From the IMG/VR virus record IMGVR_UViG_2623620502_000007: DNA of 35,017 bases. One strand, given 5' to 3'. The translations under genes and the position numbers were made by a program. The notes beneath the pieces were generated by a model. That model saw only the letters and a program-made list of their open reading frames with translations, was not told the origin of the DNA and ran no database searches. Positions 7,047 to 28,579 of the stretch are shown here, piece by piece. Each line of letters opens with the position of its first letter. Within the stretch, counting starts at the first letter, position 1. The stretch comes from a virus (lineage: Duplodnaviria; Heunggongvirae; Uroviricota; Caudoviricetes).

Positions 7047-8237
7047 TTAATTGCTGTTAACCGAGGTGACCAGATTTGCCAGGTATTTATCGGTAATACG
7101 CTGGCGCAGGGTCAGGTTTTCGAGAGGAGGCACCGGTGTATAGTCGTAGTCGATATACAGTTTTCCGGCCTTGAGGGTTTCCGCATCGTTGGATTCTTCG
7201 CTGAACCAGCAGGTCGCATCCACGATATAGCCGTTTGTTTTCAGCTCTCGGAATTTGGCATTGATGCCATCAACGATGTCGCGAATCAGCGTTGCGGTGA
7301 TGGGCTTGTCCACCGCCCACATGTGCGCCTCAGCCATCGTGTCGGCCAGCACCTGCGCGGTGCGGGTGTAGTTTTCAAAGAGGAACAGCGGGTCATCAGA
7401 GCAGGTACGGTTACCCCAGAAGCGGAAACCGTCACGGCGAATCAGCGTTGTGACGCCTGACTCATTCAGCAGGTCAGCATCGGTGCCGGACTCCTGCAAA
7501 TCCCAGAATACAGATGCGCTGATGCCGGTAACACCGTTCACCCCAACGTTGGACAGTGTTTTATGCCAGCCCTGCTCCTGGTCGATTTTAGCGCGCAGAC
7601 CCAGCGCACGGGCGGTGGCATACGCGGTGGCGGTGGTACTGGTGACCGTATCCCATGCGAGGAAATCCGGCCAGATGACCATCAGCTCACGCTGGCTGAA
7701 ATTCTGGCGGTAGGCTTTCACCTCGGAAATGGTCTTACAGCCCCATGCGCTGATATATCCGAAAGCGCGCAGCTTCTGACAGACGGATGCCAGTGCAACA
7801 GCCACCTCTTTGGTGTCCAGTCCCGGCACACCGAGAATACGCGGTTTAACACCGGTTACCGACTCTGCCGCCAGCAGGGCTTTCAGTCCGGTGTACTGAC
7901 CGTTTTCGTCGGTGGTGCCGATGATATTGGAAACGGTCTGCGCAAGTTTCGTTTCTTCGTCGTCGCCGGTGCCGTCCTCCACGCGCACAACAACGGTAAC
8001 CGGTTTTGACTGGTCGGCGATGGCCTGCAACGATGCCGCCAGCGTGCCTTTTTTACCGGCCTTTGCAATTGCGCTCTGCACATTGGTAATCAGCACCGGT
8101 TTATTGATGGGGAAGGTTTCCGCATCCGCATCGCTGGCCGTGCAGACCATGCCGACAATGGCTGTGGATACGGTGGAAATGACGCGGGTGCCGTCGTTAA
8201 TCTCCAGCACCTGCACGCCGTGATGATAGTCACTCAT
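7047..8237 (-). CDS. FI: Contractile tail sheath protein gpFI (396 aa)
   Basis: Length identical to P2 FI; N-terminus MSDYHHGVQVLEINDGTRVISTVSTAIVGMV; first gene of the FI-FII-E-T-U-D operon. Confidence 0.9.
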   Translation of the reverse strand: MSDYHHGVQVLEINDGTRVISTVSTAIVGMVCTASDADAETFPINKPVLITNVQSAIAKAGKKGTLAASLQAIADQSKPVTVVVRVEDGTGDDEETKLAQTVSNIIGTTDENGQYTGLKALLAAESVTGVKPRILGVPGLDTKEVAVALASVCQKLRAFGYISAWGCKTISEVKAYRQNFSQRELMVIWPDFLAWDTVTSTTATAYATARALGLRAKIDQEQGWHKTLSNVGVNGVTGISASVFWDLQESGTDADLLNESGVTTLIRRDGFRFWGNRTCSDDPLFLFENYTRTAQVLADTMAEAHMWAVDKPITATLIRDIVDGINAKFRELKTNGYIVDATCWFSEESNDAETLKAGKLYIDYDYTPVPPLENLTLRQRITDKYLANLVTSVNSN

Positions 8238-8360: not shown

Positions 8361-8592
8361 TGTCCTGATTTGTACACACTCATTTTCCGACTGACAATTT
8401 ACATAGCCAAAATGCTATCAAATCTGACAGCCTGTTTTGAGCGAAGAGGAACCTGAGATTGTGGTATGCTAATTTATGGGGAGCAGGTCAATTGTATTAG
8501 TTATCTTTTTGCCTTTCTTTATCCCATTTCTTTACAGTGGTCTGATACCACTCTTCACGTGTTCGTTATTCCTCTGCTCTGTCACTTGAATT

Positions 8593-9189
8593 TTAGTTGT
8601 CTGTTTTAATTTTTTTGCTTCCCTGGGAAATCGGCCTCCAGTCTTCTCTAATATTTTTCATCTGCTCAGCTATCTGTGTCATTGGACTCCTTGCACCTAA
8701 GTAGCTAACCCCCTCGAAAGAAGCCATATCATAAGAATACTCATTCCGCTCTCTTTCAGTTGAGCCCGGCTGTTTAGACCAGCTAATACTAACAGAATAA
8801 ACTTGATCTTTAATCTGGTCATACTTACAAAGACTGCTGTTGAGGGAATGGCCGTTTTTCAATACGCTAACCTTGCTAAATGGTATACCTTTATTTTTTC
8901 TATGTTCTGCATTAACCAGTGGGGGATTAAATCCGACTTCAATATCATAGGCTGGGGCATTTCCGGTATTAGCAATATTGATATCAAAATAAAAAGCAGC
9001 CCAAGAATTTGGTTCAAGAGTCACAACGACATGAGGTTGAACTGATGCGTCAACCATCCTTTTTGTCTCGTCTGCTAATAGCCTTGTTACTCTCCACAAG
9101 AAAAATGTAGCAACTGCTGTTAGCAATGCTGCCAAAGCGGAGATAAGTGTACTTACTGTGTTTATATGCTCTGCGATAAATTCGATCAT
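8593..9189 (-). CDS. Hypothetical membrane-anchored protein (198 aa), cargo in the FI/G slot
   Basis: AT-rich ORF with a Shine-Dalgarno-like AAGGA upstream; predicted single N-terminal transmembrane helix (VSTLISALAALLTAVATFFLW) followed by a roughly 165-aa soluble domain; no family recognised by eye. Confidence 0.6.
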   Translation of the reverse strand: MIEFIAEHINTVSTLISALAALLTAVATFFLWRVTRLLADETKRMVDASVQPHVVVTLEPNSWAAFYFDINIANTGNAPAYDIEVGFNPPLVNAEHRKNKGIPFSKVSVLKNGHSLNSSLCKYDQIKDQVYSVSISWSKQPGSTERERNEYSYDMASFEGVSYLGARSPMTQIAEQMKNIREDWRPISQGSKKIKTDN

Positions 9190-9641
9190 GAGTTGTCCTT
9201 GGGGGCGTACTAATTGTTTTCAATACTAAAATAGCGCCGGGCTTGAAAAATTGCACACTTATGGTTCGATTTACCTCAACAGTTAAGGCTTCAACTTCCC
9301 CCATGCACCTCACCCAGCCCAAGACTGTATGAGGTCTGACAAAGAACTTCCTGACACTTGAAAACGAGGCAACGGCTAGGGTTTCTCGTAGGGCAAGGAT
9401 TGAATACGAAGCCTGTATATTGCTCCGCGAACGCTGCTGAGGGCAGTTTAAATGTTGGGCGTTTATGTAGCCTTTCACTCACCAGCATGAGTTCAATGTC
9501 TGTGAGTTACCGACAACAATATAAAGGGGGTGGCATCATCATATATCCAAGCTAGAGTCAAATCCTCTAACTGGTTTTATGATCAGTGTCAATTGTTTGA
9601 TTATTGAACGTTTACGAAGCAGCACGGGAGCCATATAACTA

Positions 9642-9860
9642 ATGGGCAGGTATAAGCCTGTATCACGAGGAATCAGTAAAATGGCTGATGATAAGACCAA
9701 AATCGGTACCCCTGACAATGATTTAATAAGTATCAAACAGGATTACGAGAGACGTGATTGGGCTGAAAAGTTTGGAGTTAGCGAGACCAAACTTGTTCAA
9801 GCCGTACAGGCTGTAGGTCATTCGGCTAAGAAAGTACAGGCATGGCTTAAAGACCATTAA
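9642..9860 (+). CDS. Small hypothetical protein (72 aa; 59 aa if started at the internal ATG 9681), possibly DUF3606-like
   Basis: ORF in the AT-rich cargo region; the internal ATG at 9681 has the better RBS (GAGG about 10 nt upstream); the motif DYERRDWAEKFGVSETKLVQAVQAVG resembles DUF3606-type small proteins from memory. Confidence 0.5.
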   Translation: MGRYKPVSRGISKMADDKTKIGTPDNDLISIKQDYERRDWAEKFGVSETKLVQAVQAVGHSAKKVQAWLKDH

Positions 9861-9912
9861 TATATGAGCGCCTTTCTAGGCGCTTTTTTCTTTGTCCTTT
9901 GGGGGATGATTT

Positions 9913-10191
9913 ATGGCTAATAATTTATTTATTACTTACGACCTCATTAAAACGAAAGATTATGCGGCTGTGTATGATGCAATTAAATCTTTAGGAAATT
10001 GGGCTTTAACAACTGAATCGAACTGGTATGTTAACTGTAGTTACTCTGCCGAGGATGCAGCCAAAATTGTGAGGGCGATCATGGATAGTGATGATAAGCT
10101 TATTGTTGTAGACGCAACCAATAACTCAGCTTATTGGTACAATCTCTCAGATGAAGTTAGTAACCAAATTCTGACTGAGTGGAACAAGTAA
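9913..10191 (+). CDS. Small hypothetical protein (92 aa), cargo in the FI/G slot
   Basis: Strong RBS (GGGGGA 7-9 nt upstream of ATG), AT-rich codon usage, followed by a hairpin terminator; no family recognised. Confidence 0.6.
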   Translation: MANNLFITYDLIKTKDYAAVYDAIKSLGNWALTTESNWYVNCSYSAEDAAKIVRAIMDSDDKLIVVDATNNSAYWYNLSDEVSNQILTEWNK

Positions 10192-10196
10192 TTAAA

Positions 10197-10220
10197 GGGG
10201 GTGGGTAGCCCCCTTTAATT
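10197..10220 (+). terminator. Weak rho-independent terminator after the 92-aa ORF
   Basis: ggggg-tgggtag-ccccc stem-loop followed by tttaatt. Confidence 0.5.
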
Positions 10221-10411
10221 CAGAAACCATCATGATTGAAACATTAAATATACTGGGTTAATTCTTTCATCCTTGCTCCCTTGCTATATGTCCTGAAAGC
10301 GTCCTTTTTAGCCTTCTGCTCAGTATGTCCGGTAATGGCACAGAGCGGACTGCCAGATTAGGCTTTACTCTGTGCCATAGATATGTAATCTCACACCAGA
10401 GCTTATACAAC

Positions 10412-10939
10412 TTATTGCGGCATTTCCGGCCATTCAGGATTTGCAGGATCCACACGACTGACCAGAACGCTGTAGCGTTCCCAAGCCTCCAGCCGTGTGC
10501 GCTCCTCCTCTGTTGCCATGTTCAGCCTGACAGCGCGCTCCAGCGGCAAAATCACGGATTCAGCATCTGCAAGAAGTCTGGCTTTCCGATTTTCTGCCTG
10601 CTGCTGCAATTCCTCTGCCGTATAAATGCGTTTAATCACTTTGCCGTCCTTAAACATCCAGTTCCCTGAAATGTCCGCCCGTCGGTTAGCAGTAATATCC
10701 GCCACTTCAACCACACTTAATCCATCCGGTCTGATAGCTGTCACATCCTTTTCCACATAGCGGATGATATTATCTTTGTCGTACGCTATTTTTATCGTGT
10801 CATCAGCAAAATACTTTTGTTCTTCGTACCAGTTCTTACCATCTTCTGTAAAAAACCAGACGACATCAAAGTTCTTTGTCAATTGATATTGTTCAACCGT
10901 TTTTGGATTACCTGCCGTTATATTTATCAAATGCTGCAT
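10412..10939 (-). CDS. G: Tail fibre assembly chaperone gpG (175 aa)
   Basis: Length equals P2 G; immediately downstream of H with a 3-nt gap. Confidence 0.85.
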
Positions 10940-24826: not shown

Positions 24827-24993
24827 ACATCGCCGCCTGCGGGCGGCTTTTTTATACCCCGTCATCACGCCCTCACTCGCTCACCACCGCACAAAACACC
24901 CCGCAGACACACCAACCCCCAACGGGCAGACTAAGCGCCGTCACGACGCGCTGAGACGCTGGAAAATAAAATCAGCACCACCGCCAGCGCGCA

Positions 24994-25012
24994 GTGCTTT
25001 CCCCGCCTCGCC
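24994..25012. other. cos site (19-nt cohesive-end sequence)
   Basis: gtgctttccccgcctcgcc is the reverse complement of GGCGAGGCGGGGAAAGCAC, which I recall as the P2 cohesive end; it lies about 170 nt beyond Q, as expected. Confidence 0.75.
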
Positions 25013-25140: not shown

Positions 25141-26202
25141 CTACTTAGCCTTGATAACTGGATGAGCCCGGTCATGGCCCCCTCCCAAGAACTTTGAAAA
25201 AATCACCTTATCATTACTCACTGGTTTACTACCATACACACTATCGTAATGAAAAAATACTTGTGGTTGGTTTGGTATACGAATGAAACCATAAGCTAGT
25301 CTAGTATCACCTATTACTCCTTCTTCTCTATTACAAACCGGATAGCATAATTGACCACATAATGACACGAGCTCATCTGCAGTGGGGCGTTTAGAAGGGT
25401 CTAGATTTAAACATTTTTCAATTATATCTATAATTTCATTTGCCAGCGGAGCAAACTGCTTATTTGACTTAATAAAATCAGGATATTGAGTATGCTTTCC
25501 AGATAAGATGTTCGGAATAGCCATATACCCTAATCCAAAAGGATACTCTCCCGTGAGGATTCTGAACATCATCGCACCTAATGCCCAGACATCAGATGGT
25601 TTTGAAACTTGCCCCTGACTTTGTATAATTTCCGGGGCCATATATGGCAATGCCCCCATAGCTGTTTGAGATGAAGTAATCGATCCTTGCCCATTCTTTG
25701 CGGCCTCATCAATTTCATCACCGGCCATTTTTGAAATTCCAAAATCGGTGATTTTAACACCTGTAGCACTAACTCCTCCAATAACCATTATGTTAGAAGG
25801 TTTGAGGTCTCGATGTATTACATCCACATGATGGGAAGCCGAAAGAGCCTTCGCTAAGTTATGAAATATCTTTGCAGTCAAGTAAGGATCAACACTTGTA
25901 TAGCTACTCAACAATGCTTTATCCAGATCTACTCCATCGATAAATTCCTCCGTTAAAAATTCACGTCCATCTTCGGCAAAATAATCTAATGTTTTAGCGA
26001 CGTTAGGATGGTTGACCCTAGATGCTAAAATAGCACTTCTATGGAATCGTTTTTCAGCAGACTTATTTTTAGGGGTCTTAAGAGCAACTTGCCTATTTAA
26101 TATCTTATCATTCGCAAGGTAAACCTTTTGCATCCCCCCCTCACCAATTTCGCTGATAATAGTATAACGATTTATATTAGTCCCAGGAACCAACTCAATC
26201 AT
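25141..26202 (-). CDS. Hanks-type Ser/Thr protein kinase with C-terminal OB-fold-like extension (353 aa), third gene of the cargo operon
   Basis: Kinase motifs IGEGGMQKV (Gly-rich loop), VALK, HRDLKPSN, DFG, APE, DVWALG; start ATG overlaps the upstream kinase stop (ATGA) with GGAGG 7 nt upstream; AT-rich. Confidence 0.85.
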   Translation of the reverse strand: MIELVPGTNINRYTIISEIGEGGMQKVYLANDKILNRQVALKTPKNKSAEKRFHRSAILASRVNHPNVAKTLDYFAEDGREFLTEEFIDGVDLDKALLSSYTSVDPYLTAKIFHNLAKALSASHHVDVIHRDLKPSNIMVIGGVSATGVKITDFGISKMAGDEIDEAAKNGQGSITSSQTAMGALPYMAPEIIQSQGQVSKPSDVWALGAMMFRILTGEYPFGLGYMAIPNILSGKHTQYPDFIKSNKQFAPLANEIIDIIEKCLNLDPSKRPTADELVSLCGQLCYPVCNREEGVIGDTRLAYGFIRIPNQPQVFFHYDSVYGSKPVSNDKVIFSKFLGGGHDRAHPVIKAK

Positions 26203-27263
26203 AACACAACCTCCGGATGAGAAAGATCAAATGTGATAAATATACGTTTTGTAGTTGTTCTTCCGGCAGGGCCAAGTATTATCACGCATGAGCTAGGCAA
26301 TAAATTTCGTTTTTTAGCCCTAATATTATTAACATAGACATCCCCTGATATATCTGAAATATAAAACTCGGAACCAGAGTAAGTAATTTCCACACTACCC
26401 ACCCCTGGATTGTTATAAGACTCCGTCTTGTGTGTAGCTGAGAGCACTACTGGTTTTTTATTATCAGATATAAGCAATGCTCGATGAGAGTTGTGCAATA
26501 ATATTTTTTTCAAAACATCGCAAACATCTTTCATAGGGGGCCTAGCTTGAGGATTTGCATCAAGACATTTGAAAAACAATTCCTTTACAATACTTGGTAA
26601 TTTTATTACCGACAAATCAAATGGATTAGATGTCAGAATCTTAGGGTAACGGGTCAATTCATCTGGGACAGGGGTTTTAGCTAAGCACATTGCTGTAACA
26701 GCAAAGGCATATGTATCAATTGCTTTAGTAAAGTCTACGTTCTGCAAATACAACTCAGGAGCTGCAAAAATTGGGGTACCTTTAAACCCAATTGTTTTTG
26801 CATTATCTATTTTTCTTGACAAGCCAAAATCATATATTTTTACAAGCCCTTCTTTATCAATCTTCATATTCCCAGGCTTTATATCACGATGAATGATATC
26901 ATGTTCATGTATCTCGCAAATACCTGATGCTATTTGCCACAAAATCTTAATAAGCTCCCCTACTGTAGTAATTTTATTATTAACTTCATTCAACGATGGA
27001 CCATCGATAAACTCTTCAACAATTGCAAGATTGCCTTCAGCATAATTAATCACATCAAACAGTTCAACAACATGTTTTGAACGTAGTGTCATTAGAGCAG
27101 CCAACTCGTCTTTCATTCGCTCTGTATCTGATGGATCATTTATAGTCTTTATTGCAACAAATCTCTCAAGATGAGAATCGCGGCATTTGATTACACTACC
27201 AAATCCCCCTAAATCAGGATCCCCAACCACTTGATATCTTTCTGGGAGAAAATCACTCATCAT
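26199..27263 (-). CDS. Hanks-type Ser/Thr protein kinase with uncharacterised C-terminal domain (about 354 aa), second gene of the cargo operon
   Basis: Motifs LGGFGSV, VAIK, HRDIKPGN, DFG, APE; start taken at the ATG preceded by AAGGAG with 6-nt spacing (the six-frame ORF begins 2 codons upstream at 27269); overlaps the phosphatase stop. Confidence 0.85.
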   Translation of the reverse strand: MMSDFLPERYQVVGDPDLGGFGSVIKCRDSHLERFVAIKTINDPSDTERMKDELAALMTLRSKHVVELFDVINYAEGNLAIVEEFIDGPSLNEVNNKITTVGELIKILWQIASGICEIHEHDIIHRDIKPGNMKIDKEGLVKIYDFGLSRKIDNAKTIGFKGTPIFAAPELYLQNVDFTKAIDTYAFAVTAMCLAKTPVPDELTRYPKILTSNPFDLSVIKLPSIVKELFFKCLDANPQARPPMKDVCDVLKKILLHNSHRALLISDNKKPVVLSATHKTESYNNPGVGSVEITYSGSEFYISDISGDVYVNNIRAKKRNLLPSSCVIILGPAGRTTTKRIFITFDLSHPEVVL

Positions 27264-28449
27264 CACCATCTCCTTTTATTGAATTCCTTTCAAGGAATGA
27301 CATGTCAAGCTGTGAAATACAATCAAGTCTATTATTTTTATTTAACCCATTTTTTTTCTCATCTAATTCCTGAAGAGATTTATTCTTATTTTTTGTTCTT
27401 GCCTTTCTTTTTGTTGTTGCTTTGTTTATATCGCTAACGACTGAATCAGTATTTTTTTTGTTTGACACTTTTCTAACACCAGAAGTGCCTTTATTATTTT
27501 TTTCAAGCTCAACTGTATTTAAAGGCTCTAATGAAGATGACTTATTCGGCACGCTAATGACTTTTAATTCACCAAATGGATCCCAGAGATTTATTACATC
27601 TCCAGATGAAACATCTAACTCTTTTAGAGTATTAAAAAGGTCTATAACTGCTATACTTGCATTGTCGAAACCACCAAACCAACTAGCAAGATCAATAACC
27701 CGCCTAGAATAAACACCTAGATTCGCCGAGTGCACATATAACTTTCTTAAATTATCCTTACCGATAGAATGCGCACCATCAGAACTTAAAATAATTACGC
27801 CACTCTCCAAGGCTTGGATATGATGAAAGTGTATTTCCAATGTGCCATCTATGCCTATAAATTGTACTAATTCACCACCAAAGCGTAAATCAATATCCTG
27901 TGGATCCATATTTAGATGATTATTATACTTTTTGGCTAAGGCAACTAAAGTATCGTCCTCGCTCAACTGAGTAGTTTCTTCATGCGAGACATAATAAATA
28001 CGGCTATCACCTACATTTACTGCGGTAATATTATCATCATCTTCTAAAGCTATCGCTGATAATGTCGCCCCTCCATTACCCTTATATACATTCAAAACAG
28101 AATCATTCGCTTGTAGCACAGCTTTCTCAAGACAAGAACGTATTGGTAAATGAGAATTTCTTATTATTTCAGTAAAAAATGTAGATAAAGTTAAAGATGC
28201 TGCATTGGCACCCCCCTCCATCCCCCCCATACCATCGGCTAACGCAACAACAACGATATCTTTAGCTTTGCTACTTGGGCGGAATTTCAATATAGCAACC
28301 CTATCTTGGTTTTCCTTCCGTACCAACCCAATGTCAGTAGCTATAGCCACTGGTAAGGTTGAGACACGACGCACTGAGGATGCTATATTTTTTCGATGTA
28401 GCCATCCGTGAATATGCTCATGAAGGATTTCGTAAGAATCACGGCTCAC
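27253..28449 (-). CDS. PP2C (PPM) family Ser/Thr phosphatase with Lys/Asn-rich C-terminal tail (398 aa), first gene of the cargo operon
   Basis: PP2C signature motifs ENQDR, ALADGMGG, VGDSR, SSDGAH, DNAS; GTG start 4 nt after AGGAGG (an in-frame ATG one base upstream runs straight into TGA); AT-rich. Confidence 0.82.
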   Translation of the reverse strand: MSRDSYEILHEHIHGWLHRKNIASSVRRVSTLPVAIATDIGLVRKENQDRVAILKFRPSSKAKDIVVVALADGMGGMEGGANAASLTLSTFFTEIIRNSHLPIRSCLEKAVLQANDSVLNVYKGNGGATLSAIALEDDDNITAVNVGDSRIYYVSHEETTQLSEDDTLVALAKKYNNHLNMDPQDIDLRFGGELVQFIGIDGTLEIHFHHIQALESGVIILSSDGAHSIGKDNLRKLYVHSANLGVYSRRVIDLASWFGGFDNASIAVIDLFNTLKELDVSSGDVINLWDPFGELKVISVPNKSSSLEPLNTVELEKNNKGTSGVRKVSNKKNTDSVVSDINKATTKRKARTKNKNKSLQELDEKKNGLNKNNRLDCISQLDMSFLERNSIKGDGDDE

Positions 28450-28579
28450 ATTACCTCCTAGTTACTTTGATAGACCAAAGAGTTAGCTTACAAAAATAGA
28501 GCGGAAATGCCTAGTGTTTCAATCGATTTTTGTGAGAATTGGTTATTTAATAACTATATAAAAACATTGGAATTTACCA

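What the first reader, a model, noticed from the sequence alone, without database searches (positions are those of the whole stretch)
25141..25350. Second kinase carries a C-terminal segment resembling a cold-shock / OB-fold nucleic-acid-binding motif
The C-terminus of the 353-aa kinase reads EEGVIGDTRLAYGFIRIPNQPQVFFHYDSVYGSKPVSNDKVIFSKF. The pattern G-x-I...GFI...VFFH...V-x-F resembles the RNP-like core of cold-shock domains (GFGFI...VFVHF). A kinase fused to a nucleic-acid-binding OB fold would suggest sensing of phage nucleic acid or targeting of nucleic-acid-bound substrates. This is by-eye pattern recognition only.
Basis: inference. Interest (0 to 1): 0.55.

Follow-up and report, generated by a model that had tools for sequence, protein, structure and literature searches.

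The report
Cold-shock domain of KKP kinase PfkA
The kinase tail really is a cold-shock-type nucleic-acid-binding fold, but it is the already described C-terminal domain of PfkA in the kinase-kinase-phosphatase (KKP) anti-phage module, and this E. coli copy looks like the one tested experimentally in 2024.

Summary
Window 25141-25350 (- strand) encodes residues 285-353 of a 353-aa Ser/Thr kinase, and residues 292-351 form a cold-shock domain (CSD). A profile of 58 homologous C-termini matches only CSD proteins among solved structures. An AlphaFold model (pLDDT 89.9) is a five-stranded barrel that superposes on CspB and CspA (TM 0.68-0.79).

It is not new. The three genes are a PP2C phosphatase (27253-28449), a first kinase (26199-27260) and the kinase+CSD (25141-26202). 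Together they form a KKP module (PfpC-PfkB-PfkA; Guo et al., Nat Commun 2024, PMC11341870). That paper already describes the PfkA CSD and its GFI motif as essential for toxicity and defence.

The window kinases are 54% and 44% identical to PfkA and PfkB of P. aeruginosa MPAO1. All five gene-specific cloning primers published for KKP_EC039 match the window exactly at the gene borders.

The published trigger is T4 Gp59 inhibiting the phosphatase, not nucleic-acid sensing by the CSD. Whether the CSD binds nucleic acid is still untested. The RNP1/RNP2 aromatic core is conserved, but other canonical contact residues are lost.

Verdict: real, correctly recognised, already known; low interest.

The parts
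25141..26202 (-). pfkA-type gene: 353-aa Ser/Thr kinase with a C-terminal cold-shock domain (the finding's 'second kinase')
   Evidence: ORF. Pkinase E=9.2e-47 over residues 13-279. 54% identity to PfkA of P. aeruginosa MPAO1 over 342 aa, E=1e-125. The pTac-KKP_Ec039-R primer matches 25141-25167 exactly. RefSeq WP_032316595.1 'serine/threonine-protein kinase'.
25366..26166 (-). Protein kinase domain of PfkA (residues 13-279)
   Evidence: Pfam PF00069 match over residues 13-279. PADLOC kinase models (mad6, PD-T4-6) cover only residues about 8-293.
25339..25359 (-). Conserved linker motif C-x3-C-Y-P (CGQLCYP, residues 282-288) between kinase and CSD. It is family-specific and its role is unknown.
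   Evidence: C3, L6, C7, Y8 of alignment A1 are invariant or at least 90% conserved. Translation confirmed. Low model confidence here (mean pLDDT 66 for the first 10 residues).
25150..25329 (-). Cold-shock domain proper (residues 292-351): five-stranded beta-barrel
   Evidence: AF2 strands at model residues 13-21, 25-30, 33-39, 53-59 and 66-72, pLDDT 89.9. Foldseek top hits are CspB, CspA and Unr CSDs. Profile versus PDB. Translation.
25282..25290 (-). GFI motif (G305-F306-I307), the RNP1-like core. The equivalent GFI (PfkA_MP residues 307-309) or GFA (PfkA_SW) was mutated in the KKP paper and is required for toxicity and defence.
   Evidence: Translation gives GFI. Across 58 relatives the aromatic before G is conserved 58/58 and F is 53/58. 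Mutant data from PMC11341870.
25246..25260 (-). RNP2-like motif VFFHY (residues 315-319)
   Evidence: Translation. F316 equivalent 58/58, F/Y317 58/58, H318 52/58 (N in 6).
26199..27260 (-). pfkB-type gene: partner Ser/Thr kinase with a C-terminal domain that the KKP paper calls FHA. It overlaps pfkA by 4 nt. Alternative upstream starts lie at 27263 (RefSeq) and 27269 (first in-frame ATG).
   Evidence: ORF. Pkinase E=1.1e-39. 44% identity to PfkB_MP over the full length, E=2e-86. The pfkB_EC039 primers match 27235-27260 and 26199-26220 exactly.
27253..28449 (-). pfpC-type gene: PP2C-family phosphatase, the antitoxin and phage sensor of KKP. It overlaps the pfkB start.
   Evidence: PF13672 PP2C_2 E=4e-6, 27 bits against a cut-off of 24. 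PfpC_EC039 primers match 28429-28446 and 27253-27273 exactly. RefSeq 'PP2C family protein-serine/threonine phosphatase'.
28493..28522 (-). Candidate sigma-70 promoter upstream of pfpC (TTGAAA-18-TATTTT). Consensus match only.
   Evidence: The region as a whole has fewer promoter-like sites than shuffles, so this is weak.

Best explanation
The segment is the C-terminal cold-shock domain (CSD) of a PfkA-type Ser/Thr kinase. PfkA is the last gene of a three-gene KKP (kinase-kinase-phosphatase) module, pfpC-pfkB-pfkA. The module sits as a low-GC insert in the gene A / cos / portal hotspot of a P2-like prophage of E. coli. By primer matches it is apparently the same module as KKP_EC039.

How the module works, as shown experimentally by Guo et al. 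2024 and not by me:
- PfkA and PfkB are jointly toxic kinases that phosphorylate many host proteins needed for growth and phage replication.
- During T4 infection the phage helicase loader Gp59 binds and inhibits PfpC. This releases kinase activity and blocks phage production.
- The CSD, through its GFI motif, is required for joint kinase toxicity and for defence.

What I infer:
- The CSD is not the phage sensor.
- It is a canonical-type CSD that keeps the RNP1/RNP2 aromatic platform (Y304, F306, F316, H318).
- It most likely acts as a docking module, by binding single-stranded nucleic acid to bring the kinase pair to nucleic-acid-associated substrates, by contacting PfkB's C-terminal domain, or both.
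For: CSD identity:
- Family profile versus PDB hits only CSD proteins.
- 42/58 relatives hit Pfam CSD.
- AF2 model with pLDDT 89.9 and five strands.
- The best Foldseek PDB matches are cold-shock or related S1-like domains, TM 0.68-0.79.

KKP identity:
- Gene order PP2C-kinase-kinase on one strand with overlapping genes.
- 54% identity to PfkA_MP including the CSD and 44% to PfkB_MP.
- Five KKP_EC039 primer cores (114 nt in all) match exactly at the borders of the three genes.
- Flanked by Phage_GPA and Phage_portal genes, one of the contexts the paper reports for KKP.
- GC 34-41% against 51-59% in the flanking phage genes.

Mechanism: PMC11341870 sections 8-12.

Conservation of CSD ligand-platform residues in 58 relatives: aromatic at the CspB-F15 position 58/58, F17 53/58, F27 58/58, H29 52/58.
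Against: - The window's own CSD scores below Pfam's curated cut-off (16.8 versus 27 bits), so the assignment rests on the family profile and the model.
- Several canonical nucleic-acid contacts are lost. The CspB W8 position is mostly D/E/N, F38 is P, K13 is N/G and F30 is variable. Nucleic-acid binding is therefore not assured.
- Identity with KKP_EC039 is shown only at the primer sites, not over the whole cassette.
- The PfkB C-terminal domain, called FHA in the paper, gives no Pfam FHA match here, neither for the window protein, nor 46 relatives, nor PfkB_MP itself.
- The published CSD-FHA pulldown rests on a single low-scoring peptide.
Confidence: 0.9

Rival explanations
1. The CSD is a direct sensor of phage nucleic acid (ssDNA or RNA made during infection) that switches the kinase on.
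For: The CSD fold and the conserved RNP1/RNP2 aromatic residues. The known trigger Gp59 is itself a protein that binds forks and ssDNA-bound gp32 (my knowledge of T4 biology), so a nucleic-acid-dependent co-input is conceivable.
Against: [quoted passage not shown] T4 escape mutants of KKP_EC039 were followed to Gp59, which binds and inhibits PfpC. W8, F38 and K13 equivalents are lost.
Confidence: 0.07
2. The CSD has been recruited purely as a protein-protein interaction module. It docks onto the C-terminal (FHA-like) domain of PfkB to build the active heterodimer, and it binds no nucleic acid.
For: [quoted passage not shown] This rests on pulldown of His-FHA with CSD-Flag and on an AlphaFold2 heterodimer model. 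Both C-terminal domains are needed for joint toxicity. Acidic residues replace W8, and F38 and K13 are lost.
Against: The pulldown identification of CSD-Flag rests on one peptide with -10lgP 23.6. The conserved residues are exactly the canonical ssNA-stacking platform (F15, F17, F27 and H29 equivalents), and the closest profile matches are canonical RNA-binding CSDs of Unr and CspB. Many substrates are nucleic-acid-associated.
Confidence: 0.3
3. The resemblance is a chance motif match and the C-terminus is not a CSD.
For: The window sequence alone is below Pfam's gathering threshold (member 1 has no hit). The single-sequence AF2 model was uninformative (pLDDT 33.9).
Against: Family profile E=1.6e-8 to 4.7e-6 against CSD structures with end-to-end alignment. 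The high-confidence barrel model and CSD-dominated fold matches. Independent published annotation.
Confidence: 0.01

Closest known systems
PfkA of the KKP module (KKP_MP of P. aeruginosa MPAO1 prophage Pf6; KKP_EC039 of E. coli 15EC039), Guo et al. Nat Commun 2024 (PMC11341870)
   Same: Same architecture: Pkinase plus C-terminal CSD with a GFI motif. Same gene order pfpC-pfkB-pfkA with overlapping genes, and a prophage location. 54% identity to PfkA_MP over 342 aa. The KKP_EC039 cloning primers match the window exactly at all gene borders.
   Different: Nothing found that distinguishes it from KKP_EC039, though only the primer sites could be compared. Relative to KKP_MP, the host phage is P2-like rather than filamentous Pf6. 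The RNP2 histidine is present (VFFH) where PfkA_MP has VFFN.
Bacterial cold-shock proteins CspA / CspB (PF00313)
   Same: Five-stranded OB-type barrel, TM 0.68-0.79 and rmsd about 2 A. RNP1-like YGFI and RNP2-like VFFH motifs, with aromatic platform residues conserved.
   Different: The domain is fused to a kinase instead of free-standing. Only 17-30% identity. It lacks equivalents of W8, K13, F38 and R56 and has an invariant Arg at the Q59 position. It carries the family-specific motifs C-x3-CYP, SVYG and GGGxxRAxP. No binding data exist.
Cold-shock domains of Drosophila Unr / human CSDE1
   Same: Best profile match in the PDB (7zhh, E=1.6e-8), sharing the FGFI ... VFFH signature. In the 1.8-billion-protein library the next hits after the kinases are long proteins with 3-7 matched stretches; that these are multi-CSD, Unr-like proteins is my inference from their lengths and repeat counts.
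   Different: Those are eukaryote-type RNA-binding repeat proteins with no kinase domain. The similarity is at domain level only.
Single-gene kinase defences: Stk2 (Staphylococcus), PD-T4-6, and the mad6 kinase of MADS
   Same: Eukaryote-like Ser/Thr kinase domain used in phage defence. PADLOC kinase models match residues about 8-293 (mad6 2.2e-59, PD-T4-6 1.3e-54).
   Different: The matches cover only the kinase domain. There is no CSD, no paired second kinase and no PP2C antitoxin. The PADLOC 2023 library has no model matching the phosphatase.

Membership tests
KKP (kinase-kinase-phosphatase) module | Three adjacent co-oriented genes: a PP2C phosphatase (PF13672) followed by two Pkinase (PF00069) genes | tested here: met
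   27253-28449, 26199-27269 and 25141-26202, all on the - strand and overlapping. PP2C_2 at 27 bits against a cut-off of 24; Pkinase 1.1e-39 and 9.2e-47. RefSeq annotation agrees.
KKP (kinase-kinase-phosphatase) module | PfkA-type kinase carries a C-terminal cold-shock domain with a GFI/GFA motif | tested here: met
   for the CSD. GFI at residues 305-307. Homology to PfkA_MP extends through the CSD.
KKP (kinase-kinase-phosphatase) module | PfkB-type kinase carries a C-terminal FHA domain (PF00498) | tested here: inconclusive
   No Pfam FHA hit for the window C-terminus even at E<=10, none in 46 relatives, none for the family profile against the PDB, and none for PfkB_MP's own 'FHA' construct. 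However, the window protein is homologous to PfkB_MP end to end, including that construct (44% identity).
KKP (kinase-kinase-phosphatase) module | Sequence homology to characterised members (PfkA_MP, PfkB_MP, KKP_EC039) | tested here: met
   E=1e-125 and 2e-86. Exact matches of five KKP_EC039 primer cores at the gene borders.
KKP (kinase-kinase-phosphatase) module | Located in a temperate prophage or other mobile element (more than 90% of KKPs; P2, P4, Mu-like, Pf6-like) | tested here: met
   Lies between the P2-type replication gene A (Phage_GPA 2.4e-123) and the portal gene. A P2 cos sequence is present at 24994-25012. It is a low-GC island.
KKP (kinase-kinase-phosphatase) module | Joint kinase toxicity neutralised by the phosphatase; protection against lytic phages | not testable with these tools
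   [quoted passage not shown] Not tested here.
Cold-shock domain (PF00313 / CSD fold) | Own sequence scores above Pfam's gathering threshold | tested here: not met
   16.8 bits, E=0.0062, against a cut-off of 27 bits for the isolated 61-aa segment. No hit at E<=0.01 for the 74-aa segment.
Cold-shock domain (PF00313 / CSD fold) | Family-level profile similarity to bona fide CSDs | tested here: met
   Profile of 58 relatives versus the PDB: Unr 1.6e-8; Bc-CspB 4.7e-6 aligned to its residues 5-66 of 66; all significant hits are CSDs. 42/58 members hit PF00313, best 2.9e-9.
Cold-shock domain (PF00313 / CSD fold) | Five-stranded antiparallel beta-barrel (OB-type) | tested here: met
   AF2 pLDDT 89.9 and pTM 0.78, five strands. 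Foldseek PDB TM 0.68-0.79 to CspB, CspA and Unr CSDs.
Cold-shock domain (PF00313 / CSD fold) | RNP1 (K-G-F-G-F-I) and RNP2 (V-F-V-H-F) motifs with surface aromatic residues | tested here: met
   The window has A-Y-G-F-I and V-F-F-H-Y. Family conservation: aromatic 58/58, F 53/58, F 58/58, H 52/58. The W8, K13, F38 and F30 equivalents are not conserved. The CspA/CspB reference sequences and contact residues were taken from my own knowledge.
Cold-shock domain (PF00313 / CSD fold) | Binds single-stranded DNA or RNA | not testable with these tools

The most novel reading that the evidence does not exclude
The PfkA CSD keeps a working single-strand nucleic-acid platform. It would then give KKP a second input or targeting layer that the 2024 study did not address. 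For example, it could bring the PfkA/PfkB pair to ssDNA at replication forks or to nascent RNA. That would explain why substrates are enriched for replication, transcription, translation and nucleoid proteins, and it would couple activation to the fork-bound trigger Gp59.
Probability: 0.2. Interest if true: 0.45.

Novelty: already known. Interest (0 to 1): 0.12.

Why it matters
This is a correct by-eye domain call, but the biology has been published. Kinase+CSD fusions are the defining feature of KKP modules, and this E. coli cassette is apparently the one already shown to defend against T4 through Gp59 inhibition of the phosphatase. Three small points remain open:
- Nobody has tested whether the CSD binds nucleic acid.
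- The partner kinase's 'FHA' domain is not recognisable as FHA by sequence profiles.
- The PADLOC library dated 2023 used here has no model matching the PfpC phosphatase, and its kinase models match only the kinase domains. An automated annotation with that library would therefore label the two kinases by their generic kinase domain and would not report a three-gene system.

Tried and rejected
1. Single-sequence AF2 of the whole kinase gave pLDDT 33.9 and was useless. It was replaced by an alignment-based model of the C-terminal 74 residues.
2. A word-indexed homology search with the 76-aa C-terminus alone found only one protein. That protein turned out to be a deletion chimera. The full-length search was needed to collect the family.
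3. Looked for FHA in kinase 1 by Pfam on the isolated C-terminus, on 46 relatives, by profile versus the PDB, and on PfkB_MP itself. All were negative.
4. Tried to match the RefSeq accessions of the window proteins to the paper's Supplementary Data 2. That table uses IMG gene ids, so there was no match. The primer sequences were used instead.
5. PADLOC assignment to PD-T4-6, mad6, MkoA or PglW was rejected. Those hits cover only the generic kinase domain, and nothing matches the phosphatase.
6. Considered direct sensing of phage nucleic acid by the CSD. Rejected as the main mechanism because the kinases are toxic without phage and the trigger acts on PfpC.

Full report
**1. The observation**

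The ORF at 25141-26202 on the - strand encodes a 353-aa protein. Window 25141-25350 (-) translates to LCYPVCNREEGVIGDTRLAYGFIRIPNQPQVFFHYDSVYGSKPVSNDKVIFSKFLGGGHDRAHPVIKAK*, so the quoted string is there.

Residues 13-279 are a protein kinase domain (Pkinase E=9.2e-47). On its own the tail is only a marginal match. For the isolated 61-aa segment, Pfam CSD gives E=0.0062 at 16.8 bits, below the curated cut-off of 27 bits, and S1-like gives E=0.0068.

**2. Is it really a cold-shock domain?**

A search with the full protein returned thousands of kinases. The best 120 are about 350-365 aa and align over 93-100% of the query at 54-100% identity. Several carry precomputed PF00313 (CSD) or PF14444 (S1-like) hits.

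I cut out the C-termini and aligned 58 non-redundant ones (A1). Scanned one by one, 42 of 58 hit Pfam CSD (best 2.9e-9) and 44 of 58 hit S1-like.

The A1 profile searched against all PDB sequences found only cold-shock-domain proteins at significant E-values. These include Drosophila Unr CSD789 at 1.6e-8 and Bacillus caldolyticus CspB at 4.7e-6, aligned to its residues 5-66 of 66.

AlphaFold2 with A1 gave pLDDT 89.9 and pTM 0.78, with five strands. The single-sequence model of the whole protein had failed (pLDDT 33.9). Foldseek against the PDB returned CspB, CspA, CspE, Unr/CSDE1 and YB-1 CSDs, with one related S1-like domain, down to about rank 40, at TM 0.68-0.79 and rmsd about 2 A over about 65 residues.

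An exhaustive HMMER search of 1.84 billion representative proteins found 506 proteins at E<=1e-3. The top hits carry the domain at the C-terminus of proteins of about 350-370 aa, or are fragments. They are followed by long proteins with 3-7 matched stretches, which I take to be multi-CSD proteins.

The fold call is therefore correct and far beyond chance.

**3. What the thing is**

The kinase is the last of three overlapping co-oriented genes:
- a PP2C-family phosphatase at 27253-28449 (PP2C_2, 27 bits against a cut-off of 24);
- a 353-356-aa kinase at 26199-27260/27269;
- the kinase+CSD at 25141-26202.

The cassette is a low-GC island, 34-41% GC against 51-59% in the flanking phage genes. It lies between a P2-type replication gene A (Phage_GPA E=2.4e-123) and the portal gene. 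A sequence that I recall as the P2 cohesive end lies at 24994-25012. This is the gene A / cos / portal variable locus of P2-like prophages. The rest of the window has an ORF layout I read as P2-like structural and lysis genes; I did not scan those ORFs.

The identical cassette is present in only 4 of 5,426 complete E. coli genomes. There it is annotated simply as a phosphatase plus two kinases. The exact PfkA-type protein was seen on 207 contigs.

**4. It is already described**

A literature search found Guo et al., Nat Commun 2024 (PMC11341870). [quoted passage not shown] They find that more than 90% of over 1,200 KKP clusters lie in temperate phages, including P2 and P4. Their Fig. 3g legend lists Phage_GPA and Phage_portal among the neighbouring genes.

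From sequences printed in their supplement, the window kinase+CSD is 54% identical to PfkA_MP over 342 aa (E=1e-125), through the CSD. The first kinase is 44% identical to PfkB_MP end to end (E=2e-86).

The gene-specific cores of all five primers published for the E. coli 15EC039 module match the window with 0 mismatches, exactly at the gene borders (sequences):
- His-pfpC_EC039-F at 28429-28446;
- His-pfpC_EC039-R at 27253-27273;
- pfkB_EC039-F at 27235-27260;
- pfkB_EC039-R at 26199-26220;
- KKP_Ec039-R at 25141-25167, inside the finding's own coordinates.

The window cassette is therefore, as far as can be tested here, KKP_EC039 itself or a near-identical copy.

**5. How it works**

Shown in the paper, not by me:
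- PfkA and PfkB are toxic only together. Toxicity requires catalytic motifs in at least one of the two kinases, and it also requires both C-terminal domains and the GFI motif.
- PfpC's phosphatase activity neutralises them. This makes the module a tripartite, type VII-like toxin-antitoxin system.
- Targets include PolA, TopA, DnaG, InfB, Tsf, FtsZ, MinC/E, RpoD and the H-NS-like MvaU.
- Evolved T4 escape phages led the authors to Gp59. Gp59 binds PfpC_EC039 and modestly inhibits its phosphatase activity in vitro.

The sensor is thus the phosphatase, not the CSD.

My own addition concerns the CSD surface. I aligned CspA and CspB (sequences and contact residues from my knowledge of the Bs-CspB oligonucleotide complexes) to the family profile. 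The central stacking platform is kept:
- aromatic at F15 in 58/58 (window Y304);
- F17 in 53/58 (F306);
- F27 in 58/58 (F316);
- H29 in 52/58 (H318).

The peripheral contacts are lost. W8 is mostly D/E/N, K13 is N/G, F38 is P and F30 is variable. An invariant Arg occupies the Q59 position (R345).

This pattern fits a retained but shortened single-strand binding groove. It equally fits re-use of the aromatic face for a protein partner. The paper's pulldown and AF2 model place the CSD against PfkB's C-terminal domain, but the mass-spectrometry identification of the CSD rests on a single weak peptide.

I therefore treat the CSD as an essential docking module. I put nucleic-acid binding at roughly even odds, alone or together with PfkB contact. 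I regard direct sensing of phage nucleic acid as unlikely.

**6. Membership caveat**

One defining feature of KKP as published, an FHA domain (PF00498) in PfkB, could not be reproduced by sequence methods. There was no FHA hit for the window's C-terminus, for 46 relatives, for their profile against the PDB, or for PfkB_MP's own 'His-FHA' construct. None of the 120 closest relatives carries a precomputed PF00498 hit.

The domain is strongly conserved, with the consensus IGxxEIxYDGxxFxxxxVSGEVxVNN...LPGSCVVALG...FITFDxSHPEVVL. By eye it has an FHA-like 'GxVxVNN ... LG' pattern, but I see no obvious GR or SxxH phosphothreonine-binding motifs. That reading is inference only.

This does not affect the orthology with PfkB, which is clear.

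**7. Verdict**

Novelty: already known. Interest: low.

Noticed in passing
window about 25300-28307 (deleted); locus L002 3001-3300: A 99-aa protein (P0001; on at least 5 contigs, the longest 295 kb) is an in-frame fusion. It joins the first 47 residues of the phosphatase (MSRDSYEIL...VRKEN) to the last 52 residues of PfkA (LAYGFIRIP...VIKAK). It sits in the same gene A / portal slot of a P2-like prophage. This is a natural deletion of about 3.0 kb that removes almost the whole KKP cassette, with at most 1 nt of microhomology at the junction. It may reflect counter-selection of a toxic module.
   Followed up: partly
window 26199-26500 (C-terminal ~100 aa of the first kinase, PfkB-type): The domain that the KKP paper labels FHA (PF00498) is not detectable as FHA by Pfam or by profile-versus-PDB searches. 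This holds for this protein, for 46 relatives and for PfkB_MP itself. It is a strongly conserved family of its own (invariant H, A, Y, G, F, G, N, C, V, G, R, D, P, E). Its fold was not tested here.
   Followed up: partly
window 8500-10500: There is a second low-GC island (39-45% GC) between two ORFs that I take, by position and size only, to be the P2-type tail sheath (7047-8237) and tail-fibre assembly (10412-10939) genes. From my own knowledge this corresponds to the P2 Z/fun variable locus. It holds a 198-aa ORF with a hydrophobic, possibly membrane-spanning N-terminus and no family match (8593-9189, -), a 72-aa DUF3606 protein (9642-9860, +; E=8.9e-18), and a 92-aa ORF with only faint Cas2-like similarity (9913-10191, +; E about 0.02). 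It could be another accessory or defence cargo.
   Followed up: partly
window 24994-25012: There is an exact match, on the - strand, to the 19-nt sequence I recall as the P2 cohesive end (GGCGAGGCGGGGAAAGCAC). It lies between the portal gene terminator (24832-24847) and the end of pfkA. The KKP cassette therefore sits immediately next to cos.
   Followed up: yes
window 25339-25359: A nearly invariant C-x3-C-Y-P motif (CGQLCYP) plus a conserved Arg five residues later lies between the kinase domain and the CSD in all PfkA-type proteins. It is not part of the canonical CSD or kinase folds, it was modelled with low confidence, and its role is unknown.
   Followed up: no
window 25141-28449: The PADLOC library used here (v2.0.0, 2023) has no model that matches the PfpC phosphatase. 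It matches the two kinases only through generic kinase models (mad6, PD-T4-6, MkoA, PglW). A scan with that library would therefore not report this three-gene system as such.
   Followed up: yes
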